Notes: generated from the sequence alone by a model not told the origin. Numbered from the stretch's first letter, positions 45,454 through 61,298 are shown. The stretch: DNA of 64,000 nt from Patescibacteria group bacterium (GCA_016861265.1 BOLA01000001.1:523569-587568); one strand, 5' to 3'. Numbers and translations are program-made.

Positions 45454-45534
45454 AACTAGAATTATTATAAGTAATTTATTTTACTAAACTAATTGAAATG
45501 GCGGGACACACAGGTCTGGAACCAATGAATACTT

Positions 45535-45614
45535 TGGTGAAGGGACTCGAACCCTCACAGATTTGCATCTAATTGTTTGGAAAACAATCGTGTCTACCAT
45601 TGCACCACACCTGG
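45535..45614 (-). tRNA. tRNA-like gene, anticodon loop UU-UCC-AA (Gly-type), with a long variable hairpin and an imperfect acceptor stem
   Basis: Reverse complement shows a D-arm GTGC/AATGGTAGA/(A)CAC, an anticodon stem ATTGT/ACAAT with loop TTTCCAA, a variable hairpin AGAT-GCAA-ATCT and a T-arm GAGGG-TTCGAGT-CCCTT. Only 4 of 7 acceptor pairs form (CCAGGTG versus CACCAAA), so it may be a damaged or atypical tRNA. Confidence 0.4.
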
Positions 45615-45689
45615 AATTCATCCACCAAAATATTCAATTTAATTATAACAAATGAGACATTTGAGACACCTAAAAAAGGAGTCTCAAAA

Positions 45690-46703
45690 TTATTCTAAAA
45701 TCTTTGTAAAAACCCTCCTCATGTCAATACAGCAGTAAATGTAAACTTCTCTAAAGTAATCGCTGGATAAAGATTTGTTATAGAAATTTTTCTTAATCCT
45801 ATCTAGCGTACGCGGCGTAAACAAGGGATCATCAATCCATAATATCAACATTCCTTTTCCGTACTTATTCAATGCATTTTTATACGAGTTTTTGTTTAAC
45901 TTTCTCTCGACTCCTTCAACTGTAGAATATGAAATAGCTTTATCTGGTTCGAAGATTACTCCCGGAGGATGTTTATAAATTACATCGCCTCCAAATGCCC
46001 AAGAATAGGCCTCTTTTGCTTCTTCTTCATTTCTAAATACATCCGTGATTTCTACCCAAACTTGTTCTCCGGAATTAGCTTTTAATATTGCATCTGGTGG
46101 ATCTGGAGTTTCTATAACTGAATAACTAGATGTAGGCTTACTAATAAATTTCGCAAAATCCTTGGCTACAGCCAACTCGTGTGCCCGCTTAAGTTCTTGT
46201 ATATTTCTAAAATTTTGCATTAAGAGATTTGAGACTGGAATATCGGCATGGTTTCCCACTGGCAATATTACAAAATATGCATATTTATAATTCAGATCAA
46301 TTTGATATGCCCTCAATTTTCTCTTATCTTCAAAGACTGCGTCACTTCCAGTATTGTTTGATTTCTTTGCTTCAATCACTAAAAAGTTGGAATCGGAAGC
46401 TGAGCCTCGTTTATGGATTATTATGTCAGGATAGACGGTAACAGCTTCAGTATTATTACTTTCAATTTCAGCAATGGTTGTGATTAATTTCTTAGGTAAT
46501 TCTCCATCTCGATTGTATTCACAATCTACTGAGAATCCGTCAAGCTTAGGAAAGAAATTCTTTAGTTCTTGTTCAAGATATACAGCTAGCCTATGAGTTA
46601 GGCTCCTCTCGTTAATATTAACTTGTAGGATATGACGATCTTCTGTAATAAGCCTACTTAACGATTTCTCAATTAATTGTTTAACCTTTTCATTTTCTTC
46701 CAT
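45690..46703 (-). CDS. PD-(D/E)xK nuclease-fold protein (restriction-endonuclease-like)
   Basis: VYPDIIIHKRG...FLVIEAKK gives a PD...(E)xK core motif. 337 aa. Confidence 0.5.
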   Translation of the reverse strand: MEENEKVKQLIEKSLSRLITEDRHILQVNINERSLTHRLAVYLEQELKNFFPKLDGFSVDCEYNRDGELPKKLITTIAEIESNNTEAVTVYPDIIIHKRGSASDSNFLVIEAKKSNNTGSDAVFEDKRKLRAYQIDLNYKYAYFVILPVGNHADIPVSNLLMQNFRNIQELKRAHELAVAKDFAKFISKPTSSYSVIETPDPPDAILKANSGEQVWVEITDVFRNEEEAKEAYSWAFGGDVIYKHPPGVIFEPDKAISYSTVEGVERKLNKNSYKNALNKYGKGMLILWIDDPLFTPRTLDRIKKNFYNKSLSSDYFREVYIYCCIDMRRVFTKILE

Positions 46704-46710
46704 GAATTCA

Positions 46711-48336
46711 TTATATCAACATCTCAACTCCATCATTATCAACAAACTTCCACTTCTTATTACTACTTGAAGTCTTTTCATGCTTCTTAAAGAATTTTTT
46801 ATTATCCTCAGCCATGTAAACCGTAAAGTAAGTTTTACCATTCGAATCTTTTAATTCTCGCCCAATTAATTCACCATTTCGGTTCATTTTACTAACTGTA
46901 GCAGAATGTAATCCAAATTCACTTTTAAATTGCCAACTCGCAATCCATAGATCATGATTCTTAATAATCTCAGCTGGTACTATCCCTTCTTTTACATTTC
47001 TTCTACAATCAGCACATTGAATACCATCTAGATTCCACCAAGACTCACTACCTTTAAGACCTCTAGAACAAAGATTACATGAATAACCAGATTCTCGGTC
47101 CTCTAAGAAGAAACCTTCGGGTTCTTTTTCCAATCTTTTCTTTCTTAGTCTCTCTGTTATTTCCATCTCTGCTAGTAGTCTTGCTATTTCTGCTGAGTTT
47201 GAATACTTTAAAAGTTTCTCGGGATCTATTTCTGTTTTAGGTTCTTCTTTCTTTTTACCAAACAATTCATGTAAATCTTCATCACGTTCATATCCTTTTA
47301 ATTGTCCCGAAATATACCCTAATCTATAGGAAGTACCATCTGGTGTAAGTCTCCAGTTTGTTATCTCTAAAGCTTCTTTAATTATTTTTTCTAATTCTTT
47401 AGTACTATCTTTACTGCTTCTATTTGTATCATTATCTTGAACTGAGAATGGAACTATAACAAATCGAGTAATTTCAGGTTTATCAAAGGCTAAATTTTTA
47501 AACTTATATTTAACTAGCTTTTTATTAAGTACCTTTTCAAGTTCAACGATGGTTAATCTTTTTATATTAAAGGTTCTTTCATAAACAGGATCTTGATATT
47601 TTTGAAGCTCATATTCGTATATTTCATTCATAAACTTTAGCTGTTCAAATCCATCTAGTAACTCATCGCCTTTTTCTTTTGACAAACAAAATTCTGATCT
47701 GTATTTTTCTAATAATGATTTCTCCTTTTGTTCTTTCTGTAATCTTTCCTCATCATTCTTTTTATAATCATCAATTTCAATATTCTTATAATCACATGAA
47801 GTACATTTTGTGGTAGTAGTAACTATGTCATCTTTTCGTTTAAACTTATATTTAACCTCTGATTTACATTTTGGGCAAAGATCTGGTTCATGGATCCATT
47901 CCTTTCCATCTTCCCAAACATGTTTACGCTTCTTACATGAGGGGCATTCGAAGAAAAATAACATTTTCTGTGGTTTAGCATCATGCCAATCAAGTGATTT
48001 CATTGTTACATCCATTAACTTATTGCAAGTTGAACACTTAATTGCTGGAGCTGGAGTATTATCATATTTATATTGCTTGAGTTCATCTTCTTCTATCCAT
48101 TCTTTAATTTCAGTTTCTCGATTCTTATATCTGTATAATTTGGTATTTAGAAGCTGTTCATGAAGAACTTGGTTCCAGCCATTATTGATTTCTTCTATTG
48201 GAGTATTTTGGATGTCATGAGATTTGAGTGAATCTTTAGCAACTTTGCTTATAAATTCAATTTTATCAAGACATAGTTCAATAGTTAGTAAATCATACCG
48301 ATCTTCATAGTATTGTTGATCTTGAAGATATTGCAT
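46711..48336 (-). CDS. hypothetical protein with multiple CxxC zinc-ribbon pairs
   Basis: CSTCNK, CPSCKK, CPKCKS, CTSCDY, CNLCSR and CADCRR pairs. 541 aa. 7 nt upstream of the PD-(D/E)xK gene. Confidence 0.5.
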   Translation of the reverse strand: MQYLQDQQYYEDRYDLLTIELCLDKIEFISKVAKDSLKSHDIQNTPIEEINNGWNQVLHEQLLNTKLYRYKNRETEIKEWIEEDELKQYKYDNTPAPAIKCSTCNKLMDVTMKSLDWHDAKPQKMLFFFECPSCKKRKHVWEDGKEWIHEPDLCPKCKSEVKYKFKRKDDIVTTTTKCTSCDYKNIEIDDYKKNDEERLQKEQKEKSLLEKYRSEFCLSKEKGDELLDGFEQLKFMNEIYEYELQKYQDPVYERTFNIKRLTIVELEKVLNKKLVKYKFKNLAFDKPEITRFVIVPFSVQDNDTNRSSKDSTKELEKIIKEALEITNWRLTPDGTSYRLGYISGQLKGYERDEDLHELFGKKKEEPKTEIDPEKLLKYSNSAEIARLLAEMEITERLRKKRLEKEPEGFFLEDRESGYSCNLCSRGLKGSESWWNLDGIQCADCRRNVKEGIVPAEIIKNHDLWIASWQFKSEFGLHSATVSKMNRNGELIGRELKDSNGKTYFTVYMAEDNKKFFKKHEKTSSSNKKWKFVDNDGVEMLI

Positions 48337-48383
48337 AAATAATTATATATTTTTTTGCTTTAAAGTTATAATTTCTGCATATT

Positions 48384-49835
48384 TTGATTGTTAATAATAT
48401 GCTCACAAAGTCTGATTTCCTAATTTATCTTGATGCCCCAAGGCATTTGTGGGCAGTTAAGCACGGCAAGGTTGTAGAAAATGAACTAAATGCGTATGTT
48501 AAACATTTATTTGAGCAAGGATATGAAGTAGAAAAATTAGCAGAGGAATACATTCAAGAATGTTTAATTCCCCAATATAAGGCTCATCAATCTGATGTAT
48601 TAATCCAACCTACATATATTGACGGTGATTTCGAAGCTAGAACTGATGTACTTATAAAAAATCCTTTCACAGAAAAATGGGATATGTTCGAAATCAAAAG
48701 TTCTACGAGTGTAAAGAAAACTCATCAATATGATGCTACATTTCAGGCTCTTATATTTCAGAAAAAGTACGACTTGGGACAAATACACATACTCCATTTA
48801 AATGGAAAATATATACGAGAAGGCGAAATAAACTTATCTAATTTATTTGTTGAAACTAATATTACTGAAAAGGTTGGATCACTTAAAGATGAGGTTAACC
48901 TATTACGTTGTAAAGCACTTGAAGATATAAAGGAAGATAGCTGTACTCATGTACTTGGATGTATCAAACCAAAAGAATGTATATGTTCAGATATATGCCA
49001 TCTAAATCTTCCTGAATATTCAATTTATGATATTAATTATTTAACAGGGAATGAAAAGAAAATAAGGGAGCTAGAAGAAAGAAGTATTATTAATATATTT
49101 GATATCCCTGAGGATTTTAAACTTTCAGAGAAACAACGATTTCAAGTCTCTGTTGCACAAAGTAAACAAGTGGTTATAGATATTGATTCAATTAAATTAG
49201 ACCTTAAAGGAATAGAATATCCACTTCACTTTATAGATTATGAATCTTTTAATCCAGCAGTACCTATATACAATGGATATAAACCATATGACCAAATGTC
49301 TTTTCAGTGGTCTCTACATGTTCAAAAAGAACCTAATGGTGATTTAGAGCATTATGAATTTATCGAACTAGAGAAATGTGATCCAATTCAAAATTTCCTT
49401 TCTGAGTTATCTAAAAAAATTAATCGAAGTGGTTCAATTATTGTTTGGAATAAAACATTTGAAGGTACGCAAAATAAACGTATGGGACAGATCCATCCAG
49501 AATTTGCCTCTTTTTGTGAAGACATGAATACCAGAATGTATGATCTAATGGATATCTTTAAGAATCAATGGTATGCAGATCCTAAATTCAAAGGAAGTTT
49601 TTCTATTAAAAAAGTACTTCCAGTGCTAGTACCAGAGTTAAGTTATGAGGGAATGAGTATCGCAGAGGGGGCTACAGCCATGGCAAGTTGGAATGAAATA
49701 ATATATGGAGAAAGTATTGAAGATGATAAAAAATTAGATACTAAAAACAATTTGCTTAAGTACTGTGAACTTGATACTTTGGCAATGATAAAGATATTCG
49801 CAGTCATTCAGAAAGTTCTAAATTATAACTATTAA
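48384..49835 (+). CDS. DUF2779-like protein with an N-terminal Cas4/RecB-like PD-(D/E)xK nuclease motif
   Basis: N-terminal LTKSDFLIYLDAPRHLW then D-VLIKNP...FEIKSS (D...ExK). The C-terminal half carries the HFIDYESF segment. Confidence 0.45.
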   Translation: MIVNNMLTKSDFLIYLDAPRHLWAVKHGKVVENELNAYVKHLFEQGYEVEKLAEEYIQECLIPQYKAHQSDVLIQPTYIDGDFEARTDVLIKNPFTEKWDMFEIKSSTSVKKTHQYDATFQALIFQKKYDLGQIHILHLNGKYIREGEINLSNLFVETNITEKVGSLKDEVNLLRCKALEDIKEDSCTHVLGCIKPKECICSDICHLNLPEYSIYDINYLTGNEKKIRELEERSIINIFDIPEDFKLSEKQRFQVSVAQSKQVVIDIDSIKLDLKGIEYPLHFIDYESFNPAVPIYNGYKPYDQMSFQWSLHVQKEPNGDLEHYEFIELEKCDPIQNFLSELSKKINRSGSIIVWNKTFEGTQNKRMGQIHPEFASFCEDMNTRMYDLMDIFKNQWYADPKFKGSFSIKKVLPVLVPELSYEGMSIAEGATAMASWNEIIYGESIEDDKKLDTKNNLLKYCELDTLAMIKIFAVIQKVLNYNY

Positions 49836-52800
49836 TCAATCTTCTATCCACTCAGAAGAAGTTCGTTTACCTGAGGAGATGTGTCCAACTACCCTACCAT
49901 TACTTAGTTGAAATATAAGTCCTACCTGTCGAACTCTTAACCCAAGAAGTGATCTAACCTCAAGACATATAGCAAGCTTCTGATCATCTGGAGATAGGAT
50001 AGAACTTTCAATTTTAGAATTTCGATTACTATATTCTTTGGGTAATTGATTCAGTATCGTAGACCATTGTTCAGATTTATCCGTACTACGATTAATTCCG
50101 TCAAGAAGCTGGGTAAGTGGTTCAAGAAAGATTTGCTCTCCAGATGTAAGATATTCAAAATAAATTTGTAAACCTGTTAACTCACAAATTTTCAAATCTT
50201 CAGGATGGCATTTTCTCCCACTCCATGCACATGGTTTAGCTTCAAGAGGTGAACAATAATTCCCTGTTACAGACTTTATAGCTTCTTTCTCCATTAACCT
50301 TGCTCCAGAAAGGCTGCTTGAGACAAAGAATTTCTTAAGGGCCTTTTCCCCTGAAAATACAGATTTCTCAAGTTCATCAGTCAATACTTTTTTGCCAGTA
50401 ATAGAACATTGTTCTAAAATCCCAGGTAGAACTATTTTATTAGTAATTTCACATTTTTCTCCTTCAGAAGGTAGTAATGGTTGTTTTGTTACTGCACAAA
50501 AAATGAATTCGTCTTTATGCCCAGTTTTTCCAGAGAAAATAGAACGTAATTGTTGATCTTTCCTATAAGTTTTTTTTGAAACTTCACTAATAGCCAACTC
50601 GTCTTTTAGAACTTCATCTCCCGTAAATTCACATTTACCAAAAAAACTTTGTTCGGCTTTCTTTCCACTTAATTGAGAAACTTTTAGCAGTGATCTCATA
50701 ACAGGTTTACCTGTAATTTGAGAATAATCAATTTCATCTATTAAGACACGTTTACCAGTAAGTGAACATATTATAGTATTATCAATTGTGGCTTTTCTGG
50801 AACTTATTTCTGATTGAATTAAAAGGTTACGCAATACTTTATTTCCAGTTATTGCATCTGACTCGAGGCAGTCTACAGGTACCTCTTTATTGGTTTTGGT
50901 ACATTTTTCTATTACTGGAACATTTAGAAATTTATTCTGAGATGGAGATAGAGTTATTTCACTAGTATAATTTTCACCACCATCAATATGGTAGTTTACA
51001 AGTATTTTTAATTCTCTGTGAACTGTCCCCTCAACACCTACCATATTGACATTAAGTCTAGGTGTAAAGTCATCATTTAGTCTCTTTCTTTTAATAAGAT
51101 CATCACCTGCACTTTGAATTTCTATTGATTTTCGTTCATTGTAAAATCTACAAAATTCAGATATCCCTTCATCGGCATTTATATTATTAATAATCTTATC
51201 TATTATAATTCCAATCGAACTAGGATCTTCTATAGTATTTGGTATTTTATCTAAGCCGTTTTTAATTTTATTATTATGTTCTATAGAAGAACAATCACTT
51301 TCGATAAGTCGCTCATAGCTATCGCAAGCTACTGTTGAGCGAACCCTAATGAGTGTTTTTCCATCAAAACATCTATATACATCTTTGATATTATAATTTT
51401 TAAAATCACCATTAAAACTATTGACCCATTTTCTTGATATCTCGTCAATCTTTTGTAATATACCATCATCTACATCTGAAACGTTGTGTAATGGGCTACT
51501 AGTTATCTTACCTACAAGACTCTCAAATGAACTTGTTCCTGGAGCATACAAATCACTGTCGGGAGATTTCAAATCTTCATTAAATTGTATTATTTTTATA
51601 TCGCCATCAAGATTACAGCTATATGAATCTATATCAATTTGTGAGATTTTACCCCCCAAGGATTCTAGTCCTAGTAGAGAAACCTCTTTCGCACTCAAAG
51701 ACTTAATTTGTTTAGGTAAATTAGGACATAATGGTCCCATATCTGAACTATCCATTGCACCGAGAAGTGTATTAATAACTTTTTGTTGAGCTTCTAATTC
51801 AACTTTTGCATTAGATATACTTTCCTCGGTCATTCGAGTTGCTTCTTCTATATCTTTTCCTGCTAGCGATGCGATAACAAGTTTACGGATCTGTTCTTCA
51901 AATCCATCTGAGACTTCGTCTTCATTTTCACTTAAACCAGAACCTTCTAATAACGATTCGATATCTCCAATGGCGTGAGCAGCCATCTGTAATTTTTCCA
52001 TTAATCGACCTACAATTTTTTCTTCAAAGGTATCTTTCAAGACTATATTAAAAATGCTTACATTCTTGTGCTCAGAGGCTAATCTTTGAATACGACCTAT
52101 TCGTTGCTCAACAATCATAGGATTCCACGGCAGATCATAATTAATTAGTACATTTGCCGATTGTAAATTTACCCCTTCTGAACCTGCTTCTGTAGATATA
52201 ATCACGTTAATTTCTGGATTGGACTTCTTAAATCTGGCTATCGTATCTTGGTTTCTTTGTCCTGAATCGCCGTTTATGAGTCCACATTTTATACCTAGTT
52301 TTTCTAGAAAGATTTGAATTGAGGTCTGTGTTTCTCTACGTCCTGTAAATATGACCAATCTCCATGCATCAGGTTTCTCGGAACGCAATCTCTCTACCAA
52401 GATATTTAACCCATTTAACTTTGCCGTCACCCCAACCCGTTTAACTACTTCTTGAACATCTATGGCTAGTGATTCAGGAATTGTCTGCCTTCTTGCCATG
52501 TTATTAAGTTGTGCAGATAATGCTTCGGGGCTACTTATAAGAGCTTGGAGAATAGATATTTGAGCTAATGGGTTGAGTTTTTGAATTGGTTCTGCAATTG
52601 TATTAATTAATTCTAGCTCCTCTTTAGATGGAATAACTCGATGGAGTTGCACTATCCTTTCTGGAAAATCAAGTTTTGCATCGATTCTCCTTACACGAGA
52701 CATATACCCATAAACAATTGAACGAAATTCCTCAGCTTTTTCTGGTTTTAAGTGACGAGCATCTGAACGATTATCAGCAATAAAATTTCTTGCGAATAAT

Positions 52801-53528
52801 CCTTCACTTCCAAGAGGATTTTCATGACCTCTAGCCACTGTTAACAAGTCAATGAGTGAGTATAAATCCCAAAGTCTATTGTGAATTGGAGTTGCGGTAA
52901 GCATCAATACATATTTAAATACTCTGTCCGATAAGGCTTGATGAAAACGTTTGGCAACTTGAGGGGTTTTCTCTACACCATATAGATTACGCAATTTGTG
53001 AGCTTCATCTAAAATCAACATTTCAAAACCTAATGTTGATAAGATGTCGAAATATATACGTGCGGATTGATATGTTGTAATTACTGCAACGGAAGAGTCA
53101 TCTGGAAAATTTAATTCTGTTAATTTCTTACCAATTGCTTCAATAGCTGTTATCTTAAATTTTAAATCTAGTTCTTCACGCCACTGAGGCATTAATATTT
53201 TGGGACAAACAATCAGTATCTTTGACACCCGATTACGGGATATAAGTTCGCTTATTATTAATCCGGCACTTATAGTTTTTCCTAACCCAACGTCATCAGC
53301 TAACAATGTAACAGGTAATCTCCTACAAAATGTGATTAAATTGGATACTTGATGTTGATATGGTTCAACATGATCTTTCCATTTATATTCTGACTTTATA
53401 TCACTTCTATCTTTTATTATAATTGGATCAATTAAATCCCATTCGAGTGCAGATTTATACAGATCATATTCTTCTTTATCTTTGGATTTTGAAAGTGCTT
53501 TAGTTTGAATGATAGAAGATGTATCCAT
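49836..53528 (-). CDS. SNF2-family (SWI2/SNF2) helicase/translocase with a roughly 650-aa C-terminal extension carrying tandem C-x2-TG-x2-VL repeats
   Basis: SNF2_N LADDVGLGKTISAG, DEAH box LILDEAHKLRN, helicase-C motifs (ISTEAGSEGVNLQ, QRIGRIQR). C-terminal repeats such as CSLTGKRVLIDEI, CEFTGDEVLKDEL, CEITNKIVLPGIL, CSITGKKVLTDEL. 1230 aa. Confidence 0.85.
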   Translation of the reverse strand: MDTSSIIQTKALSKSKDKEEYDLYKSALEWDLIDPIIIKDRSDIKSEYKWKDHVEPYQHQVSNLITFCRRLPVTLLADDVGLGKTISAGLIISELISRNRVSKILIVCPKILMPQWREELDLKFKITAIEAIGKKLTELNFPDDSSVAVITTYQSARIYFDILSTLGFEMLILDEAHKLRNLYGVEKTPQVAKRFHQALSDRVFKYVLMLTATPIHNRLWDLYSLIDLLTVARGHENPLGSEGLFARNFIADNRSDARHLKPEKAEEFRSIVYGYMSRVRRIDAKLDFPERIVQLHRVIPSKEELELINTIAEPIQKLNPLAQISILQALISSPEALSAQLNNMARRQTIPESLAIDVQEVVKRVGVTAKLNGLNILVERLRSEKPDAWRLVIFTGRRETQTSIQIFLEKLGIKCGLINGDSGQRNQDTIARFKKSNPEINVIISTEAGSEGVNLQSANVLINYDLPWNPMIVEQRIGRIQRLASEHKNVSIFNIVLKDTFEEKIVGRLMEKLQMAAHAIGDIESLLEGSGLSENEDEVSDGFEEQIRKLVIASLAGKDIEEATRMTEESISNAKVELEAQQKVINTLLGAMDSSDMGPLCPNLPKQIKSLSAKEVSLLGLESLGGKISQIDIDSYSCNLDGDIKIIQFNEDLKSPDSDLYAPGTSSFESLVGKITSSPLHNVSDVDDGILQKIDEISRKWVNSFNGDFKNYNIKDVYRCFDGKTLIRVRSTVACDSYERLIESDCSSIEHNNKIKNGLDKIPNTIEDPSSIGIIIDKIINNINADEGISEFCRFYNERKSIEIQSAGDDLIKRKRLNDDFTPRLNVNMVGVEGTVHRELKILVNYHIDGGENYTSEITLSPSQNKFLNVPVIEKCTKTNKEVPVDCLESDAITGNKVLRNLLIQSEISSRKATIDNTIICSLTGKRVLIDEIDYSQITGKPVMRSLLKVSQLSGKKAEQSFFGKCEFTGDEVLKDELAISEVSKKTYRKDQQLRSIFSGKTGHKDEFIFCAVTKQPLLPSEGEKCEITNKIVLPGILEQCSITGKKVLTDELEKSVFSGEKALKKFFVSSSLSGARLMEKEAIKSVTGNYCSPLEAKPCAWSGRKCHPEDLKICELTGLQIYFEYLTSGEQIFLEPLTQLLDGINRSTDKSEQWSTILNQLPKEYSNRNSKIESSILSPDDQKLAICLEVRSLLGLRVRQVGLIFQLSNGRVVGHISSGKRTSSEWIED

Positions 53529-53566
53529 ACTTTATTTTGATTTTATGGTTATCATTGGTAATTAAG

Positions 53567-54559
53567 TTAATGTGTACGCTGCATAATTAATTCTTCTTTC
53601 ACTTTTTGATGAGCTGTTGTTAGCATTTCTTTGACACCATTTTTAAACTTCGTATTTTCAAGTATCTGAGGTACCTTTACATTTCTTACAGTATCAGGAA
53701 GAGACAAATTTGCAAAGGCATTGGTTGGTCTATACTTGAAGTCTTTAAGATTAAAAACAGTCATTATCTTTCCATATTGAGCCTCAAAATCATTTATTAA
53801 TTCTTGAAGTTTTGATCTGAATAAATCTGGATGTAATTTTATGTATCTTTTATTTGTAAATCCAACCACTGAAGCTATATTAATCATATCATCCGCGGAT
53901 AATGTCGTGCCTTCTAGGATTCTTAGAGCTAATGCTTCGTCAATCTCCTCTTCTAATATAAATGGAGCTCTTTTTATTATATCGACTCTTTTTCTAGCAA
54001 TACTTGCGATAATTAAGGACCTTATTGCATATGAACGAAAAGATGCTTTTGAATGGTATTGTAGAAGTCGAATAATTTCATCCACAGCTTTATCATAATC
54101 TCCAACAAGTAAGTGTCTTTCTAATCCATAAAAATATAAAAATACATAGCTTAAATTAGTTTCTTGAGTGACATCTCTCAACCAGTTTAGATATTGATAG
54201 CGAGTCTCAGGATAAAATTTACTATAAGAAGGGTAATACATAGGATCTTTATATAAATCATTATTTGGTTTGATTGGAAGCTTTGTCCAAATCAAACTTG
54301 GTTCAGCGTAAAATCCATTTTCATTTTCCTTAAGTTCGGGACCGTTCTCAGTAAGAGTTATCGTTATGCTCATAGAGCCAGCAATTTCTATCTTAGATGT
54401 ATCTTCATCAGTTATCCATAATAAAGAAAGGGTGGGTTCAGGTATTCTTAATGAATCTCTAATATTATTATTTGTAGATCTACTGACACTAATAATCTTA
54501 TTATCAATATTTGGATTATTATTAGTTTTCTTAAATAGAGATCCAAGTAAATTGAACAT
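53567..54559 (-). CDS. hypothetical protein co-transcribed with the SNF2 helicase (possibly TerB-N-like, unverified)
   Basis: 330-aa ORF ending 38 nt upstream of the SNF2 start. Contains a conserved-looking YQYLNWLRDV...YFYGLERHLL segment. Confidence 0.45.
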   Translation of the reverse strand: MFNLLGSLFKKTNNNPNIDNKIISVSRSTNNNIRDSLRIPEPTLSLLWITDEDTSKIEIAGSMSITITLTENGPELKENENGFYAEPSLIWTKLPIKPNNDLYKDPMYYPSYSKFYPETRYQYLNWLRDVTQETNLSYVFLYFYGLERHLLVGDYDKAVDEIIRLLQYHSKASFRSYAIRSLIIASIARKRVDIIKRAPFILEEEIDEALALRILEGTTLSADDMINIASVVGFTNKRYIKLHPDLFRSKLQELINDFEAQYGKIMTVFNLKDFKYRPTNAFANLSLPDTVRNVKVPQILENTKFKNGVKEMLTTAHQKVKEELIMQRTH

Positions 54560-54677
54560 AATATTCTTAAATGATTAACTTTTTAATTTAATAATATAGA
54601 GATTTTACTACTTTTCTCTTGCATTTTATATTGAGATATACTTAGCCTTCCTCACAAATTTGTATTATAATCATGGC

Positions 54678-54848
54678 ATAAGAGACCTAACCTCATATGG
54701 ATTTTTCTATGTGAGCATGGTTTCTAAACAAAATCGTACGACACGTAAAAACGGCTTCTCAGCCGGTATCGTGTCGTACGTCTACAAGGGGGAACTCTTG
54801 TAGGGCAGCCCGAAAGGGTGTAGCCACTGGTCTGAGAAGTCGTTTTTT
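54678..54848 (+). ncRNA. candidate structured RNA or regulatory element (GC-rich, nested hairpins, pseudoknot-capable)
   Basis: -10 TATAAT at 54666-54671; perfect 11-bp inverted repeat CGTACGACACG (54735-54745) / CGTGTCGTACG (54770-54780) enclosing the hairpin CGGCTTCTCAGCCGG; GNRA-capped hairpin GGCAGCCC-GAAA-GGGUGUAGCC (54804-54825); segment ACTGGTCTGAGAAG (54826-54840) complementary to CTTCTCAGCCGGT; then a T6 run. Confidence 0.35.
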
Positions 54849-54965
54849 GCTATTAAGCCTCAAACACTTTCCAAATCAGCACGTAAATTAATTTTTAATA
54901 CTAATTGCCTATGACAATAAGCTTATAAGTACAGCTAGCTTACTTTTATTTTTTATTATTTTTAT

Positions 54966-55478
54966 ATGGCTCAAGATCAAAATAGTACTATAGGAACAGC
55001 AAAAAAATCCTTTATTAAAGGAATTAGTGGAACTGTAGGAATAATAGGAGGATTGTTGCTTTGTTGCTTAGTTGTTGCTGTAATGGTTGCTATGTCACAA
55101 GGTAGTAAGACACCAACTAATGACTCGTCCAGCAATAGTTCAAACACTAGCTCTAATACACCCAAACATGATCCAGTAAATTTAACTTTTACAGGAAAGG
55201 GTAATAAAGATACAGATAGTTTTACTTTGTATGATGGAACTGCAAAAATGACAGTTACTACATCAGGTGGATCTGTGGGTACATACTCATCAGTAACTTT
55301 GCAAAAAGAAGGCGAGAATATGTTCTTAAATGGACTAACTGGCGAAGATTTAAATATCTCAACTAAGGGTTCAGAAGATGGTCATGGAGATACAACAGTT
55401 AGAGGAATAAAAGAAGGTAAATATTACATTTCTGTTATTTCAGGTGTTGACTGGAGTGTGACTATAACTCAAGAGTAA
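54966..55478 (+). CDS. membrane-anchored Ser/Thr-rich secreted protein, unknown function
   Basis: N-terminal transmembrane helix GIIGGLLLCCLVVAVMVAM, S/N-rich linker, beta-rich C-terminal domain. Confidence 0.5.
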   Translation: MAQDQNSTIGTAKKSFIKGISGTVGIIGGLLLCCLVVAVMVAMSQGSKTPTNDSSSNSSNTSSNTPKHDPVNLTFTGKGNKDTDSFTLYDGTAKMTVTTSGGSVGTYSSVTLQKEGENMFLNGLTGEDLNISTKGSEDGHGDTTVRGIKEGKYYISVISGVDWSVTITQE

Positions 55479-55498
55479 TAATCAAACCACTAAACCTA

Positions 55499-55522
55499 AG
55501 AGACCTCGTGATGAGGTCTCTT
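55499..55522 (+). terminator. rho-independent terminator-like hairpin (agagacctc gtgatg gaggtctct)
   Basis: 9-bp stem followed by a T-rich stretch, immediately after the 54966-55478 CDS. Confidence 0.55.
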
Positions 55523-55533
55523 TCTATATCAAG

Positions 55534-56223
55534 ATGTATAATCTAACTATGACTATTGAAGAACTTAATAAACATATAGAATCACTAACTCTTCCGCATA
55601 AGAAACTTTTAGAAATTTTTCAAAATGTATATAAACCATTTGAAGAGCTATCTGAAATTTTAGGACATCAGGTATATGTAGATCCTACAACATTTGAAAC
55701 ATTAGTTTCTATTTTTCCTACTGAAAAAAGTCTAAAAGTTTCAATCGAAGAGATAACGGCAAATCCAGATATTTACTTTATCTACACAAACCATGTAAAA
55801 CTTCCTCGATATAGAGACTCACACATTATTGTAGATAAACAAACTGCATTTTTAATAAATAAGCTTGATATGACATTTAGACGAAAATTTTACTTAGGAA
55901 TAAAAAAAGTTCCATTCAATAAAAATACTTCAGTACTTAGAATTGAAGACTACACCTTTGAAATAGATAAAGACTCTGACACATATAACCTATGTCTTAT
56001 GCTATTTGGTTCTAAACAATATATTAATCGAATATGGAAATGGAATGATATCTTAGATAAAGTAATGGGACATAGCGATGAAAGAAAAGATGATGTGAAT
56101 GCTTTTAAACTTAAAGTCTATAGATTAAATCTAAGACTATATAAAACTGGGTATAAGAATATAATTTTGTATAAAAATAAAACAGTGCGTGTAAATCCTG
56201 AGTATATCTTCCTCTTCAAATAG
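55534..56223 (+). CDS. hypothetical protein
   Basis: 229-aa ORF. Confidence 0.45.
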   Translation: MYNLTMTIEELNKHIESLTLPHKKLLEIFQNVYKPFEELSEILGHQVYVDPTTFETLVSIFPTEKSLKVSIEEITANPDIYFIYTNHVKLPRYRDSHIIVDKQTAFLINKLDMTFRRKFYLGIKKVPFNKNTSVLRIEDYTFEIDKDSDTYNLCLMLFGSKQYINRIWKWNDILDKVMGHSDERKDDVNAFKLKVYRLNLRLYKTGYKNIILYKNKTVRVNPEYIFLFK

Positions 56224-56287
56224 ACACCGAACCTGACCGAAACCCACTTCATGATGTAATTAGATAATAATTTTTATCTAATTATAT

Positions 56288-57616
56288 ATGGAAGAAAAAC
56301 TTCAAACTGTCTATGTAAATATAGACGATCTTACCAAAGCTGACTACAACCCAAGGAAATGGGATGAAAAAGCACTTTCAGATTTAAAAGAAAGCATAAA
56401 GCGATTCGGCATAGTAGATCCAGCTATAGTAAATTCAGCTGAAAGTAGAAAAAACATAGTGATTGGTGGACATATGCGTATTGAAGCAGCTAAAGCTTTA
56501 GGTCTTAAAGAAATGCCGGTAATTTATCTGGATATTTCAGATATCGAAAAAGAAAAAGAGCTTAATTTAAGACTTAATAAAAATCAAGGTGAGTTTGATT
56601 TCACTCTACTTGCAAATTTCGCAGAAGATCTATTACAAGATGTGGGTTTTAACTCTGAAGAATTAGACTCAATCTTTGATTGGGATGATGACAATCCAGA
56701 AGTTTTTGATTTAAAGAAAGAACTTGAAAAATTAAATATTAAAGAGATTGAAATACAAAAAGGCGATGTTTGGCAACTAGGTGAAAGTAAATTAATGTGT
56801 GGTGATTCTACAATCGAAGAAAATGTTTTGAAACTTATGAATGGTGAAAAAGCAGACATGTGTTTTACTGATCCTCCGTATATTCTGGATTATCTTCATG
56901 GTAAAAAGAAAAATGGCAAACCAGTTGAGGGCTTTGGAGCTAAGAGAAATAGAAAGTATTTAGAAACAGATGAACTTCCTGATAACTTTACAGAATTATG
57001 GATGGGGAACGTATCTAAAATTTCAAAAGATAATTTTCACATCATTGTTTATGAAAATTGGAAAAATATACGAACTATTTGGAATGAAATTGAAAAATAT
57101 TGGAAAGTTAAAAACATGTTAGTTTGGCATCTTCCAAATAGAAATCAGGGATTTGCAGCTAAATATAAGTTCTTTTCAAAGCATGACATTGCAATGGTAG
57201 GTTCAACTGAAAGATCGGAAACTTTTAATTTAAATCCTGAAGATGAGCTTTTACAAAATGAATATGAAACTGCACTTTATGCAATAGCTGGCAAACCTCA
57301 TTGGGAAGGTTATGAAAAAGGTAAAAAAATCCAGCCAACAGATTTTATTGAATATAAAGCTTCAGATGAAAAAAGTTCTGGGCAAGGAATTATATTTGGA
57401 ACAAAACCACTAGAGATTTTAATCCCATATATCAAAGTTTTAACAAAGAGAGATGATTTGATAATTGAACCATTTGGAGGAAGTGGTTCAACTCTTATTG
57501 CTTCAACAAAGATGAAAAGACGATGCTACTTAATGGAAAAGTCACCAGTCTATGCAGAAGTTATTAAAAACAGATGGGAAAAGTTAACTGGTGAGAAAGG
57601 AGTAAAAATATCATGA
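56288..57616 (+). CDS. ParB-like nuclease domain fused to a DNA N6-adenine/N4-cytosine methyltransferase (beta-class)
   Basis: ParBc GGHMRIEAAKALG; methyltransferase motif IV CFTDPPY before motif I EPFGGSGST (beta permutation). A phage-typical fusion. Confidence 0.8.
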   Translation: MEEKLQTVYVNIDDLTKADYNPRKWDEKALSDLKESIKRFGIVDPAIVNSAESRKNIVIGGHMRIEAAKALGLKEMPVIYLDISDIEKEKELNLRLNKNQGEFDFTLLANFAEDLLQDVGFNSEELDSIFDWDDDNPEVFDLKKELEKLNIKEIEIQKGDVWQLGESKLMCGDSTIEENVLKLMNGEKADMCFTDPPYILDYLHGKKKNGKPVEGFGAKRNRKYLETDELPDNFTELWMGNVSKISKDNFHIIVYENWKNIRTIWNEIEKYWKVKNMLVWHLPNRNQGFAAKYKFFSKHDIAMVGSTERSETFNLNPEDELLQNEYETALYAIAGKPHWEGYEKGKKIQPTDFIEYKASDEKSSGQGIIFGTKPLEILIPYIKVLTKRDDLIIEPFGGSGSTLIASTKMKRRCYLMEKSPVYAEVIKNRWEKLTGEKGVKIS

Positions 57617-58014
57617 AGAATAAAAAGAAAGAATTAGTTGAACAACTAAGAAAAACTCCTGTTATTGAAGTTGCCTGTAAAAAGATTGGAATTGGTAGAG
57701 CGACATTCTACAGATGGAAGAAACGAGATCAGAAGTTTGCTGAGGAAGCGGAATTTGCCTTGAATGAAGGTTCTCAGTTAGTTAATGATATGGCTGAAAG
57801 CCAATTAATAACTTCAATTAAAAATGGAAATATGACAGGAATTATATTTTGGCTTAAAAATCACCATAAGCAATATTCTCCAAAACTTGAGGTCACGACA
57901 AAAAGTGCTGATCTTCCGCTAACTGAAGAACAAAAAGAAACGATTAGAAGATCGTTGAGCATGGCATTTAATTTAAATATTAATAATGATGAAAATGAAG
58001 AAGCTACAAATTGA
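57613..58014 (+). CDS. putative terminase small subunit (N-terminal helix-turn-helix)
   Basis: HTH IGIGRATFYRWKK. Small basic protein immediately upstream of and overlapping the terminase large subunit. Confidence 0.45.
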   Translation: MKNKKKELVEQLRKTPVIEVACKKIGIGRATFYRWKKRDQKFAEEAEFALNEGSQLVNDMAESQLITSIKNGNMTGIIFWLKNHHKQYSPKLEVTTKSADLPLTEEQKETIRRSLSMAFNLNINNDENEEATN

Positions 58015-59458
58015 TCAAGACTACTCATTGCCCATGGAAGTTATTGATGAAATACTAAATGATAAGCAAGTTCGTAAGGAATTAATAAGAGAAAGTCATT
58101 ATTGGTTCTTTCATTTGTATTTCAGTGAATATGTGAAGTATTCAACGGCAGATTTTCAAAAGGAAATGTTCAAGATTACTGAAGATGATAAAGTCAAAAT
58201 GGCAGTGATTATTGCATTTAGAGGCTCGGCTAAATCAACAATTATGACTATGTCCTATCCTCTTTGGGCGATAATTGGAAAACAAAAAAGGAAGTGTGTA
58301 GTAATAATATCTCAAACTCAACAACAGGTCAGAACTCACTTTGCAAATTTAAAGCGTGAATTAGAAAGCAATGAAATTTTAAGAAACGATTTAGGTGCAT
58401 TAGAAGAAGAATCTGATGAATGGGGATCATATTCATTAGTCTTACCTAAATTTAATGCAAGACTTATTGCAGCATCAAGTGAGCAAAGTATCAGAGGAAT
58501 AAGGCATGGTGCAAATAGACCTGATCTAATAATTTGTGATGATGTTGAAGATATAAGTTCAGTGAAGACAAAAGAGGGTCGAGATAAAGCATATAACTGG
58601 CTATCAGGCGAAGTTATTCCCCTTGGTGATCAAAATACAAAAGTAATAATGATAGGAAATCTTCTACATGAAGACTCTTTGTTAATGAGATTAAAGAAGA
58701 AAATTACTGAAGAAAATATGAATGCAATATTCAAGGAGTATCCTATTGTTGATTCTGAAAATAATATTCTTTGGGAAAGTAAATTTAAGAACCTTGAGGA
58801 CATTGAGAATTTTAAAAAGATTATAGGAGATGATAAGGCTTGGCAAAGAGAATATATGTTAAAGATTATTCCGGAAGACGACCAACTAGTGTATAGAGAA
58901 TGGATTCAATATTATGATGAATTACCACAAAATACCAGTAGTTATAAATACACTATAATTGGTATTGATTTGGCAATTTCAACAAGTACATCTGCAGATT
59001 ACACAGCTATGATAACAGCGCATGTTTTTGGTTATCTAGAAAATCTTAAAGTATATATATTACCAAATATATTTAATAAGAGAATTGAATTCCCTGAAAT
59101 AGTCGATACCGTAAAACAAAAAGGTAGAGAAAAGTACTACAGCAGAAGACCAGAGATTTATATTGAAGATGTTGGATATCAAGCATCTGTAATACAAGCA
59201 CTGAAGAATCAGAGCTTAAATGTTAAAGGATTCAAAGTTCATGGTCAAGATAAACGAGCAAGGTTAAATTCCGTAACTCCATATATAAGATTTGGACAGG
59301 TCCTTTTTCCTAAGCAAGGAGCAGAAGAATTAATTCAACAGCTAGTCTATTTTGGTGTAGAGAAGCATGATGACCTAGTTGATGCATTTTCGATGCTAAT
59401 GATAAGAGTTTCAGAAAAAGATAGACCTGGTGTGCAAATTTTACCCTATTATTTCTAA
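57986..59458 (+). CDS. phage terminase large subunit (ATPase plus RNase-H-like nuclease)
   Basis: Walker A AFRGSAKST, Walker B PDLIICDDVED, C-terminal nuclease acidic residues (GIDLA...D...D). Confidence 0.6.
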   Translation: MMKMKKLQIDQDYSLPMEVIDEILNDKQVRKELIRESHYWFFHLYFSEYVKYSTADFQKEMFKITEDDKVKMAVIIAFRGSAKSTIMTMSYPLWAIIGKQKRKCVVIISQTQQQVRTHFANLKRELESNEILRNDLGALEEESDEWGSYSLVLPKFNARLIAASSEQSIRGIRHGANRPDLIICDDVEDISSVKTKEGRDKAYNWLSGEVIPLGDQNTKVIMIGNLLHEDSLLMRLKKKITEENMNAIFKEYPIVDSENNILWESKFKNLEDIENFKKIIGDDKAWQREYMLKIIPEDDQLVYREWIQYYDELPQNTSSYKYTIIGIDLAISTSTSADYTAMITAHVFGYLENLKVYILPNIFNKRIEFPEIVDTVKQKGREKYYSRRPEIYIEDVGYQASVIQALKNQSLNVKGFKVHGQDKRARLNSVTPYIRFGQVLFPKQGAEELIQQLVYFGVEKHDDLVDAFSMLMIRVSEKDRPGVQILPYYF

Positions 59459-59502
59459 TAAATAGCTGGACTTCATTTGATTGTAGCGGTACTGTCCTTG
59501 GT

Positions 59503-60923: not shown

Positions 60924-61298
60924 ATGCTTAAACTTACTGGAGATTTGGAACAAGAAATAATGAATATATTATGGGTTGATAGTGAACCTCTTATACCTTC
61001 TGTAATCCAATCCAGATTATCAAAAAAACTAGCCTATACCACTGTGAAGACAATATTAGAAAGACTTCATGATAAAGGCTTATTAAATAGACAGAAAAAA
61101 TCGGGTGTGTATTATTATAGTCCTAAAGTCTCAAAGGAAAGTTATGGTTCAAAAAGTTTAAGATCAGTTTTTAAAAACATTCTTGGATCTTATGGTAATT
61201 TAGCGATCTCTCAATTTATTGAATCTATAAAAGAAGAGCCTGAGAGTCTTGATCTATTAAAAAAATATTTAGAAGATGAGGAAAATAAATCAATATAA
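60924..61298 (+). CDS. BlaI/MecI/CopY-family transcriptional repressor
   Basis: Winged helix with LEQEIMNILW...TVKTILERLHDKGLL. Confidence 0.7.
   Translation: MLKLTGDLEQEIMNILWVDSEPLIPSVIQSRLSKKLAYTTVKTILERLHDKGLLNRQKKSGVYYYSPKVSKESYGSKSLRSVFKNILGSYGNLAISQFIESIKEEPESLDLLKKYLEDEENKSI

What the first reader, a model, noticed from the sequence alone, without database searches (positions are those of the whole stretch)
45690..54559. Candidate novel defence island: giant SNF2 translocase, three nuclease or zinc-ribbon partners and a conserved hypothetical
Five genes form two minus-strand operon pairs around a convergent plus-strand gene.

- 53567-54559 hypothetical, followed 38 nt later by the 1230-aa SNF2 ATPase 49836-53528.
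- 48384-49835 DUF2779-like protein with a Cas4/RecB-like PD-(D/E)xK motif.
- 46711-48336 protein with at least six CxxC zinc ribbons, followed 7 nt later by the PD-(D/E)xK nuclease 45690-46703.

Combinations of an SNF2 ATPase with nuclease(s) and zinc-ribbon proteins, placed next to a phage-derived methyltransferase/terminase/integrase module and a tRNA-like locus, are the pattern of anti-phage systems such as DISARM, Shango (TerB plus helicase), Hna and Zorya-ZorD. This exact gene set and the repeat-bearing SNF2 C-terminus match none of those that I can recognise from sequence.
Basis: partly seen in the sequence, partly recalled or inferred. Interest (0 to 1): 0.85.

Follow-up and report, generated by a model that had tools for sequence, protein, structure and literature searches.

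The report
Swappable helicase-nuclease defence cassette in mobile element
The five genes are real, but they are not one system: three of them (a TerB_N protein, a large SNF2 motor and a two-headed nuclease) form a swappable, uncharacterised candidate anti-phage cassette in the defence-gene slot of a small terminase-carrying mobile element.

Summary
They are a TerB_N protein, a 1230-aa SNF2 ATPase with seventeen 15-residue C-terminal repeats, a DUF2779 protein (Cas4-like plus DEDDy nucleases), a protein with three zinc ribbons, and a PD-(D/E)xK protein.

They are not one five-gene system. A sister element about 88% identical in DNA keeps the zinc-ribbon gene and the LOOT/ParB-methylase/TerS/TerL/serine-recombinase backbone. 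It replaces 48350-54638 (DUF2779, SNF2, TerB_N) with methyltransferase genes. Other relatives carry type I R-M plus an OLD nuclease in that slot, or nothing.

The SNF2 family spans many phyla. DUF2779 lies directly beside it in 18-22 of 80 genomes. The trio of TerB_N, DUF2779 and a large helicase recurs with three unrelated helicases.

- **Best reading:** a Shango-like but distinct helicase-nuclease defence cassette that matches no PADLOC or NCBIfam system.
- **Zinc-ribbon gene:** a backbone gene flanking the hotspot.
- **Fifth gene:** a separate fusion resembling PD-λ-3 subunit A.

Defence function is inferred, not shown.

The parts
48350..54638 (.). Variable cargo cassette (DUF2779 + SNF2 + TerB_N), bounded by the breakpoints of DNA homology with sister element L175
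   Evidence: blastn aligns window 46720-48349 and 54639-59861 to L175 at 88.5% and 87.5% identity. The 6.3 kb between them has no match. In L175 it is replaced by 4.8 kb encoding proteins of 187, 397 and 273 aa plus two type II methyltransferases.
53567..54559 (-). TerB_N-domain protein (330 aa), first gene of the minus-strand pair
   Evidence: Pfam TerB_N 1.6e-19 and PADLOC SngA 3e-17. The family has 324 hits at 50-65% identity, mostly in Patescibacteria. It recurs next to DUF2779, to the zinc-ribbon gene and to large SF1/SF2 helicases.
49836..53528 (-). SNF2-family ATPase (1230 aa) with a family-specific 710-aa C-terminal region
   Evidence: SNF2-rel_dom plus Helicase_C. Walker A (GLGKT, aa 81-85), DEAH (aa 174-177) and motif VI are invariant in alignment A1. 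The family has 764 hits of about 1230 aa at 45-54% identity over the C-terminal region and 320 genome loci across many phyla. The C-terminal model has pLDDT 84.5 and shows a weakly RapA-like linker, NTF2-like domains and a 17 x 15-aa solenoid.
48384..49835 (+). DUF2779 protein: a Cas4-like PD-(D/E)xK nuclease fused to a DEDDy 3'-5' exonuclease, convergent on SNF2
   Evidence: Pfam DUF2779 8e-38. D88/E103/K105 and D285/E287/E360/Y460/D464 are conserved among 25 homologues and intact here. The domain reading follows PMC13621843 and PMC3985635. It is adjacent to and co-directional with the SNF2 family in 18-22 of 80 loci.
46711..48336 (-). Zinc-ribbon protein (541 aa); conserved backbone gene flanking the hotspot, function unknown
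   Evidence: It is kept at 88.5% DNA identity in L175 while the cassette differs. The family has 666 hits of about 545 aa across Patescibacteria. It borders the cargo slot opposite g229/ParB-MTase in L167, L085/86/102, L175 and L178=L274. The model has pLDDT 86.7 with no informative fold match.
45690..46703 (-). Fusion protein: PD-Lambda-3_A-like PD-(D/E)xK domain (aa 1-155) plus a second small domain (aa 166-335); separate variable gene
   Evidence: PADLOC PD-Lambda-3_A 1.2e-33 and phrog_23471 for the C-terminal half. In 1.84 billion representatives the two halves hit separate proteins of about 160 aa and 175 aa, and no listed hit spans both halves; the fusion is seen only here. In L175 this position holds a CapP-like M78 peptidase. 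In L121 a 139-aa homologue of the N-terminal domain follows the zinc-ribbon gene.
45531..45615 (-). tRNA-like gene at the edge of the element (possible integration site)
   Evidence: ARAGORN calls tRNA-Gly(tcc) of 85 nt. Rfam tRNA scores 38.7 bits. The fold shows a long extra arm.
54684..54825 (+). LOOT RNA (RF03000), part of the conserved backbone next to the cassette
   Evidence: Rfam 55.3 bits against a gathering score of 46.4. It is also found at the equivalent place in L175, and in L121 and L010.
54966..60831 (+). Element backbone: g170, g229, ParB_N-N6/N4 methyltransferase, TerS-like HTH, TerL, large serine recombinase
   Evidence: Pfam and PHROG hits, including TerL phrog_38 at 1.8e-84 and integrase phrog_95 at 1.9e-60. 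The same gene order is seen in L175, L178, L003, L121 and L122.

Best explanation
The region is the cargo end of a roughly 15-kb integrative element. The host is probably a Patescibacteria genome (inferred: a 1.1-Mb contig, 32% GC, nearest homologues from CPR MAGs).

The element's backbone is: zinc-ribbon protein | cargo slot | LOOT RNA, g170, g229, ParB-methyltransferase, TerS, TerL, serine recombinase. It has no capsid or tail genes, so it looks like a phage-satellite-like derivative of a phage lineage that has the same ParB-MTase/TerS/TerL block.

Shown: the slot between the zinc-ribbon gene and g229 is a hotspot whose content differs between relatives. It is empty in some, and holds TerB_N alone, type II methyltransferases, or type I R-M plus an OLD nuclease in others.

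In this window the slot holds one three-gene cassette: TerB_N, SNF2 and DUF2779.

Inferred mechanism: the SNF2 motor translocates on double-stranded DNA. Its large C-terminal region (NTF2-like modules plus a 17-repeat beta-solenoid) recognises a target or partner. DUF2779 is the effector and degrades DNA ends with its Cas4-like and DEDDy exonuclease domains. TerB_N acts as sensor or regulator, as proposed for SngA in Shango.

The 337-aa PD-lambda-3_A-like fusion is a separate candidate defence gene, possibly abortive-infection-type, in a second variable position. It may be paired with the zinc-ribbon gene.
For: 1. **Cassette boundaries.** The sister element L175 shares 46720-48349 and 54639-59861 at about 88% identity but has unrelated genes in between.
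2. **Hotspot series.** L167 and L273 are empty. L085/86/102 hold TerB_N only. L175 holds two type II MTases plus three unknown genes. L178=L274 holds HsdM-HsdS-HsdR-Old.
3. **SNF2-DUF2779 link.** DUF2779 lies within 300 bp and co-directional in 18 of 80 loci, and within 700 bp in 22 of 80. Both gene orders occur, across Patescibacteria, Acidobacteriota, Ignavibacteria and Proteobacteria. 22 of the 25 DUF2779 copies in these loci are immediately adjacent.
4. **The trio recurs with unrelated helicases.** L100 has TerB_N, DUF2779 and a 1088-aa SNF2. L084/94/95 have an SF1 AAA_11/12-MTES_1575 helicase, DUF2779 and TerB_N in a tight operon. DUF2779 is the commonest Pfam family among 74 non-redundant TerB_N neighbours.
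5. **Defence company elsewhere.** SNF2 neighbours include tyrosine integrases (14 loci), OLD/AAA_15 nucleases, methylases and UvrD. DUF2779 sits beside type I R-M plus Shedu (L272/L276) and a Gabija-like OLD+UvrD pair (L275).
6. **Intact catalytic residues.** All are present in SNF2 and in both nuclease domains.
7. **Not a phage gene.** 2.9 million viral contigs give only helicase-core matches at 23-40% identity.
8. **Established knowledge.** Satellites and prophages carry swappable defence hotspots between core genes. Shango is a TerB, ATPase and helicase system with proven anti-phage activity (10.1101/2022.11.11.516204).
Against: - No experiment exists; defence is guilt by association.
- TerB_N was found next to this SNF2 family only in this window (and its identical copy L001): 0 of 80 other loci. 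The TerB_N-SNF2 link therefore rests on the 38-nt spacing, on co-swapping as a block, and on analogy with other helicases.
- 55 of 80 SNF2 loci have no DUF2779, and TerB_N often sits beside housekeeping genes. Each gene may therefore work alone.
- Here DUF2779 is convergent on SNF2 rather than co-directional as it is elsewhere.
- A DUF2779 homologue is quasi-essential in JCVI-syn3.0 (PMC13621843), which points to a possible housekeeping DNA-metabolism role.
- No mechanism for telling self from non-self is evident.
- Only one close sister element defines the exact breakpoints.
Confidence: 0.55

Rival explanations
1. All five genes form one novel five-component defence system.
For: Tight spacing (38 nt, 7 nt, abutting stop codons). 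The zinc-ribbon gene recurs near TerB_N (7 of 85 loci) and near DUF2779 (L003, L272, L275, L276). A PD-Lambda-3_A-like gene follows the zinc-ribbon gene in L121.
Against: No other locus holds all five genes. L175 keeps the zinc-ribbon gene at 88% DNA identity with none of the other four. The 337-aa fusion is seen nowhere else. The zinc-ribbon gene borders slots that hold R-M systems or nothing.
Confidence: 0.05
2. The SNF2 protein, with or without DUF2779, is a DNA-repair/recombination or RapA-like transcription factor carried around by mobile elements. It is not an immune system.
For: RapA is the best solved-structure match to the post-helicase region. RapA is also among the NCBIfam hits (121 bits). 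A DUF2779 homologue is quasi-essential in a minimal Mycoplasma, and its exonuclease domain resembles the repair nuclease MrfB. The family has very uniform length and 55-61% identity across phyla. RmuC and SbcD are among the neighbours.
Against: It scores far below the RapA cut-off (576 bits). Its distribution is patchy and HGT-like, with variable neighbours rich in integrases, OLD nucleases and methylases. Here it occupies a slot that otherwise holds R-M systems. DUF2779 sits in Shedu, Gabija and R-M islands.
Confidence: 0.2
3. Three (or five) independent single-gene functions that are neighbours only because they landed in the same hotspot.
For: Each gene is found alone elsewhere. SNF2 lacks DUF2779 in 55 of 80 loci. 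TerB_N often has unrelated or housekeeping neighbours. DUF2779 occurs alone beside R-M or Gabija. DUF2779 is on the opposite strand here.
Against: 22 of 25 DUF2779 copies in SNF2 loci are immediately adjacent and co-directional. The TerB_N, DUF2779 and helicase trio recurs in tight operons with three different helicase families. The three genes were exchanged as one block relative to L175.
Confidence: 0.2
4. The cluster is the element's own replication/recombination module, or its module for interfering with a helper phage.
For: It lies inside a terminase- and recombinase-bearing element. Helicase-nuclease pairs are common in phage replication modules.
Against: It is absent from sister and related elements that keep the backbone. 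The SNF2 family is not found in IMG/VR beyond core-level similarity. Most SNF2 loci are chromosomal islands in unrelated phyla without this backbone.
Confidence: 0.08

Closest known systems
Shango (SngA TerB-like protein, SngB ATPase, SngC DEAD/DEAH helicase)
   Same: A TerB-type protein is encoded directly upstream of a large SF2 helicase in a defence hotspot. The TerB_N protein hits the PADLOC SngA model (3e-17).
   Different: There is no SngB ATPase. The helicase is an SNF2 with a unique C-terminal region and does not hit SngC among its top PADLOC matches. A dual nuclease (DUF2779) is present. The SngA match is partial (61 bits).
DISARM DrmD / BREX BrxH / Dpd DpdE / Zorya ZorD SNF2 helicases
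   Same: The SNF2 core is most similar to these defence helicases (PADLOC E about 1e-53 to 1e-36).
   Different: The matches cover the helicase core only and score far below NCBIfam cut-offs (195 vs 610, 170 vs 500, 70 vs 1500). None of the partner genes (DrmABC, BrxABCXZ, Dpd, ZorABC) is present.
RapA (RNA polymerase-associated SNF2 ATPase)
   Different: It scores 121 bits against a 576-bit cut-off. The C-terminal NTF2-like modules, the 17 x 15-aa solenoid and the terminal beta domain have no RapA counterpart. The context is a mobile element, not the core genome.
PD-lambda-3 (E. coli abortive-infection system)
   Same: Residues 10-155 of the 337-aa protein match subunit A (1.2e-33) and carry a PD-(D/E)xK motif.
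   Different: Here the domain is fused to a second domain of about 170 aa from a family that normally occurs as a standalone protein. No subunit B homologue was detected.
Defence hotspots of phage satellites and prophages (P4-like, PICI)
   Same: Conserved flanking core genes enclose a slot where unrelated defence systems replace each other between close relatives.
   Different: The backbone is different (ParB-MTase, TerS, TerL, large serine recombinase, LOOT RNA, zinc-ribbon protein), and the host is a CPR bacterium. Satellite status is inferred only from the lack of structural genes.
Helicase-exonuclease repair pairs such as MrfA/MrfB
   Same: A helicase is paired with a DEDDh/y exonuclease.
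   Different: The helicase family differs. DUF2779 adds a Cas4-like domain. The genomic context is mobile and defence-rich.

Membership tests
Shango | SngA: TerB-domain protein | tested here: inconclusive
   PADLOC SngA 3.1e-17 at 61 bits, aligned to model positions 33-215 of 528. Pfam TerB_N is met, but no TerB or TerB_C domain was detected.
Shango | SngB ATPase gene in the operon | tested here: not met
   No ATPase ORF lies in 48350-54638, and none of the five proteins hits SngB in PADLOC.
Shango | SngC DEAD/DEAH helicase | tested here: not met
   The top 25 PADLOC hits of the SNF2 (down to 3e-22) are DrmD, BrxH, HmaA, ZorD, DpdE and similar families, not SngC.
DISARM | DrmD equivalog score, plus the DrmA/DrmB/DrmC/methylase partners | tested here: not met
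   NF038317 scores 195 bits against a cut-off of 610, and NF038318 scores 171 against 950. No DUF1998 or PLD partner lies in the cluster.
Zorya (ZorD) | ZorD equivalog score and ZorABC neighbours | tested here: not met
   NF041790 scores 69.7 bits against a cut-off of 1500. There are no ZorABC genes.
Dpd (DpdE) | DpdE equivalog score | tested here: not met
   NF041062 scores 169.7 bits against a cut-off of 500.
RapA | RapA equivalog score | tested here: not met
   NF003426 scores 120.8 bits against a cut-off of 576. Structural similarity is weak.
PD-lambda-3 | Subunit A homologue | tested here: met
   PDLC03986 at 1.2e-33, covering model positions 19-153 of 159.
PD-lambda-3 | Subunit B homologue adjacent | tested here: not met
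   None of the five proteins hits subunit B in PADLOC. The fused C-terminal domain matches only phrog_23471.
DUF2779 (PF11074) | Pfam gathering score and the catalytic residues of both nuclease domains | tested here: met
   130 bits against a cut-off of 23.3. D88/E103/K105 and D285/E287/E360/Y460/D464 are conserved.
TerB_N (PF13208) | Pfam gathering score | tested here: met
   71 bits against a cut-off of 25.
Hna (single-gene helicase-nuclease Abi) | Helicase and nuclease in one polypeptide | tested here: not met
   No nuclease domain was detected in the SNF2 protein by Pfam or by fold search of aa 521-1230. No Hna model was seen among the PADLOC hits. Sequence membership was not tested directly.

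The most novel reading that the evidence does not exclude
TerB_N, a large helicase and DUF2779 may form a widespread, modular and so far unnamed class of anti-phage system. In this class the Cas4-like/DEDDy dual nuclease is the common effector and the helicase is interchangeable (RapA-like SNF2 with a new 15-residue-repeat sensor solenoid, another SNF2, or an SF1-REase helicase). Its carrier would be a previously undescribed family of terminase-only, serine-recombinase satellites of Patescibacteria, with a defence hotspot bounded by a zinc-ribbon protein and marked by the LOOT RNA.
Probability: 0.35. Interest if true: 0.75.

Novelty: new variant of a known kind. Interest (0 to 1): 0.6.

Why it matters
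- **New testable candidates.** If the cassette protects against phages, it would give a function to three large uncharacterised families. These are an SNF2 family present in hundreds of species across phyla, DUF2779 (including a quasi-essential gene of the minimal cell JCVI-syn3.0), and the CPR TerB_N proteins.
- **A new fold to study.** It would add a C-terminal repeat architecture with no structural precedent to the set of defence sensors.
- **CPR biology.** CPR bacteria have few recognised defences and no genetic tools. A conserved satellite-like element with a swappable defence slot would be a practical guide for mining their immune repertoire. It would also tie the orphan LOOT RNA to a specific mobile element.

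Tried and rejected
- Five-gene co-occurrence was tested by tblastn, phmmer and clustering over 80 SNF2 loci and 85 TerB_N loci. It was rejected.
- A DNA-level tandem repeat in the SNF2 3' end was sought and none found.
- The promoter/terminator scan gave counts no higher than shuffled sequence, so it is uninformative.
- The fold search of the zinc-ribbon protein returned only generic alpha/beta domains, so no function can be assigned.
- The PDB sequence search for the 337-aa protein found nothing.
- Literature searches for TerB-N plus SNF2, and for the LOOT motif, found nothing useful.
- The SNF2 family was sought in IMG/VR and only helicase-core hits came back.
- The exact-sequence look-up to name the organism returned no names.
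- Element ends (att sites) could not be defined. Large serine recombinases leave no long repeats, and the sister contig ends too early.


Full report
**Observation.** The five ORFs are exactly as listed: 45690-46703(-), 46711-48336(-), 48384-49835(+), 49836-53528(-) and 53567-54559(-). The gaps are 7 nt and 38 nt, and the stop codons of the convergent DUF2779 and SNF2 genes abut. Composition (about 32% GC) matches the rest of the window.

Pfam, PADLOC and NCBIfam give the following:
- The 330-aa protein is TerB_N (1.6e-19; PADLOC SngA 3e-17).
- The 1230-aa protein has SNF2-rel_dom plus Helicase_C in aa 55-520 and no hit beyond.
- The 483-aa protein has DUF2779 (8e-38).
- The 541-aa protein has no family, but six invariant CxxC pairs make three zinc ribbons.
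- The 337-aa protein matches PD-Lambda-3_A (1.2e-33) in aa 10-155 and carries a PD...ExK motif.

The flanks are housekeeping genes and a tRNA-like gene on the left (ArgRS, PGA_cap, MscL). On the right lie a LOOT RNA, two small unknown genes, a ParB_N-N6/N4 methyltransferase, a TerS-like HTH, TerL and a large serine recombinase.

**The SNF2 protein belongs to a tight, widespread family.** A search with only the C-terminal 724 residues found 764 proteins. Nearly all full-length hits are 1210-1250 aa (shorter ones lie on short contigs) and share 45-54% identity over that whole region. Twenty-one full-length members share 55-61% identity, with all helicase motifs invariant.

In one genome per GTDB species, 320 loci encode a relative. 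The best 80 span Patescibacteria, Acidobacteriota, Nitrospirota, Alpha-, Beta- and Gammaproteobacteria, Elusimicrobia and Planctomycetota. In 2.9 million viral contigs only the helicase core matches, at 23-40% identity. This is therefore not a phage gene.

The C-terminal region models confidently (pLDDT 84.5). It has a helical linker, two helix-plus-curved-sheet modules, 17 tandem 15-residue repeats (aa 876-1129, consensus [CS]x[ILF][TS]GKxVLxDELxx) that form a beta-solenoid, and a terminal beta domain.
- Foldseek finds only RapA, weakly (E 3e-3 over about 290 columns).
- Nothing matches the solenoid.

**Neighbourhood census of the SNF2 family.**
- DUF2779 is the only recurrent partner. It is co-directional within 300 bp in 18 of 80 loci and within 700 bp in 22 of 80. 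It occurs on either side of the SNF2 gene.
- 22 of the 25 DUF2779 copies in these loci are immediately adjacent.
- TerB_N and the 337-aa protein occur in none of the 80. The zinc-ribbon protein occurs in one (L003).
- Other neighbours vary. They include tyrosine integrases (14 loci), OLD/AAA_15 nucleases, DUF2130, methylases, UvrD, SbcD and RmuC.

**DUF2779.** Published analyses describe it as a Cas4-like PD-(D/E)xK nuclease fused to a DEDD 3'-5' exonuclease of unknown role. One homologue is quasi-essential in JCVI-syn3.0 (PMC13621843, PMC3985635). In an alignment of 25 homologues the triad D88/E103/K105 and the DEDDy set D285/E287/E360/Y460/D464 are conserved and intact in the window protein.

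**TerB_N.** The family has 324 hits at 50-65% identity, mostly from CPR MAGs. Contexts come, from a scan of 80 metagenome loci, and from Pfam on neighbours.
- DUF2779 is the commonest annotated neighbour.
- The trio recurs with other helicases. L100 has TerB_N, DUF2779 and a 1088-aa SNF2. L084/94/95 have an SF1 AAA_11/12-MTES_1575 helicase, DUF2779 and TerB_N in a tight operon.
- L092/93 have the same SF1 helicase, then DUF2130, then TerB_N. L082 has TerB_N followed by a UvrD-PD-(D/E)xK fusion. L088/89 have TerB_N followed by a PIN protein.
- Many other TerB_N genes sit beside unrelated or housekeeping genes.

**The decisive comparison.** A sister element (L175) aligns to the window at 46720-48349 (the zinc-ribbon gene, 88.5%). 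It also aligns at 54639-59861 (LOOT RNA, g170, g229, ParB-MTase, TerS, TerL and the start of the recombinase; 87.5%). Window 48350-54638 has no counterpart. L175 carries three unknown genes plus two type II methyltransferases there. It also has a CapP-like M78 peptidase where the 337-aa gene sits.

More distant relatives show the same slot between the zinc-ribbon gene and g229/ParB-MTase:
- It is empty in L167 and L273.
- It holds TerB_N alone in L085/86/102.
- It holds HsdM-HsdS-HsdR plus an OLD/GajA-like nuclease in L178=L274.

Phage contigs with a 37-38% identical TerL (L181/L182) continue from ParB-MTase, a small (TerS-position) gene and TerL into a run of further genes sized like portal and capsid genes (sizes only, not annotated). 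The element here ends with the recombinase. It is therefore a derivative without structural genes and resembles a satellite.

DUF2779 also lies next to the zinc-ribbon gene in two other settings. In L272/L276 it sits beside type I R-M and Shedu. In L275 it sits beside a MmeI-like R-M and a Gabija-like OLD+UvrD pair.

**The 337-aa protein.** Against 1.84 billion representatives its two halves hit separate families of about 160 aa and about 175 aa, and the fusion is seen only here. Plasmid homologues of the N-terminal half are 160-aa proteins near BREX and restriction genes. PD-lambda-3 is described as an abortive-infection system (PMC13190303). In L121 a 139-aa homologue directly follows the zinc-ribbon gene, so a zinc-ribbon/PD-(D/E)xK pairing cannot be excluded.

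**Interpretation.** Three things are shown. The five genes are not a conserved unit. The middle three were exchanged as one block in a hotspot that holds bona fide defence systems in relatives. SNF2-DUF2779 and TerB_N-DUF2779-helicase associations recur far beyond chance.

Two things are inferred. The cassette is an anti-phage helicase-nuclease system with a TerB_N sensor or regulator. It works like Shango or other SNF2-based defences, but it fails the membership tests for Shango, DISARM, Zorya, Dpd and RapA.

The main rivals are a repair or transcription role for SNF2 and DUF2779, and three independent neighbours in one hotspot. The zinc-ribbon protein is best read as a backbone gene flanking the hotspot. 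Its function is unknown, since its model (pLDDT 86.7) has no informative fold match.

**Verdict.** This is a new variant of a known kind (helicase-nuclease defence with a TerB-type partner), carried by an interesting and apparently undescribed element family. Interest is 0.6.

Noticed in passing
window 54684-54825 (+); L175 5035-5176; L121 3745-3863; L010 8981-9100: The orphan LOOT RNA (RF03000) recurs in this family of ParB-MTase/TerS/TerL/serine-recombinase elements. It lies at the same backbone position in the sister element and next to the recombinase in two others. This suggests it is an element-specific RNA.
   Followed up: partly
window 45531-45615 (-): The tRNA-like gene at the element edge is odd. 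ARAGORN calls an 85-nt tRNA-Gly(UCC). The fold shows a long extra arm and a 6-bp anticodon stem, and Rfam gives only 38.7 bits. It could be an unusual tRNA or a degraded integration target.
   Followed up: partly
window 54966-60831; L175, L178/L274, L003, L121, L122, L167, L085: This appears to be a family of integrative elements without structural genes. The backbone is g229, ParB-MTase, TerS, TerL and a large serine recombinase, with a zinc-ribbon gene across a variable slot. Related true phages (L181/L182) share the ParB-MTase and TerL genes, with a small gene in the TerS position. The elements look like an undescribed phage-satellite type in Patescibacteria.
   Followed up: partly
window 49836-53528, protein aa 876-1129: Seventeen perfect-period 15-residue repeats alternate Cys and Ser at position 1. 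Several of the cysteines are invariant across phyla, forming a cysteine ladder along a predicted solenoid. No match was found in the PDB.
   Followed up: partly
L092/L093 2848-9341; L006 upstream of the SNF2 gene: DUF2130 takes the place of DUF2779 between an SF1 helicase and TerB_N. It also sits directly upstream of the SNF2 family in L006. It may be an alternative effector module.
   Followed up: no
L032, L039: The SNF2 homologue appears fragmented into many short ORFs under translation table 11 in a Gracilibacteria MAG and one other Patescibacteria MAG. This fits an alternative genetic code rather than pseudogenes.
   Followed up: no
L027 7337-7673: A group I intron (RF00028, 89 bits) lies near the serine recombinase of another element that carries SNF2 and DUF2779.
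   Followed up: no
window 60924-62259 (+): A BlaI-like repressor and a BlaR1/M56-M48 peptidase pair lie immediately after the serine recombinase. Whether they belong to the element or to the host was not determined.
   Followed up: no
L172 448-2079: A standalone homologue of the C-terminal half of the 337-aa protein directly abuts (stop to start, no gap) a 366-aa Vpar_1526-family (PF28206) gene. This suggests that the small domain is a modular partner of different proteins.
   Followed up: no
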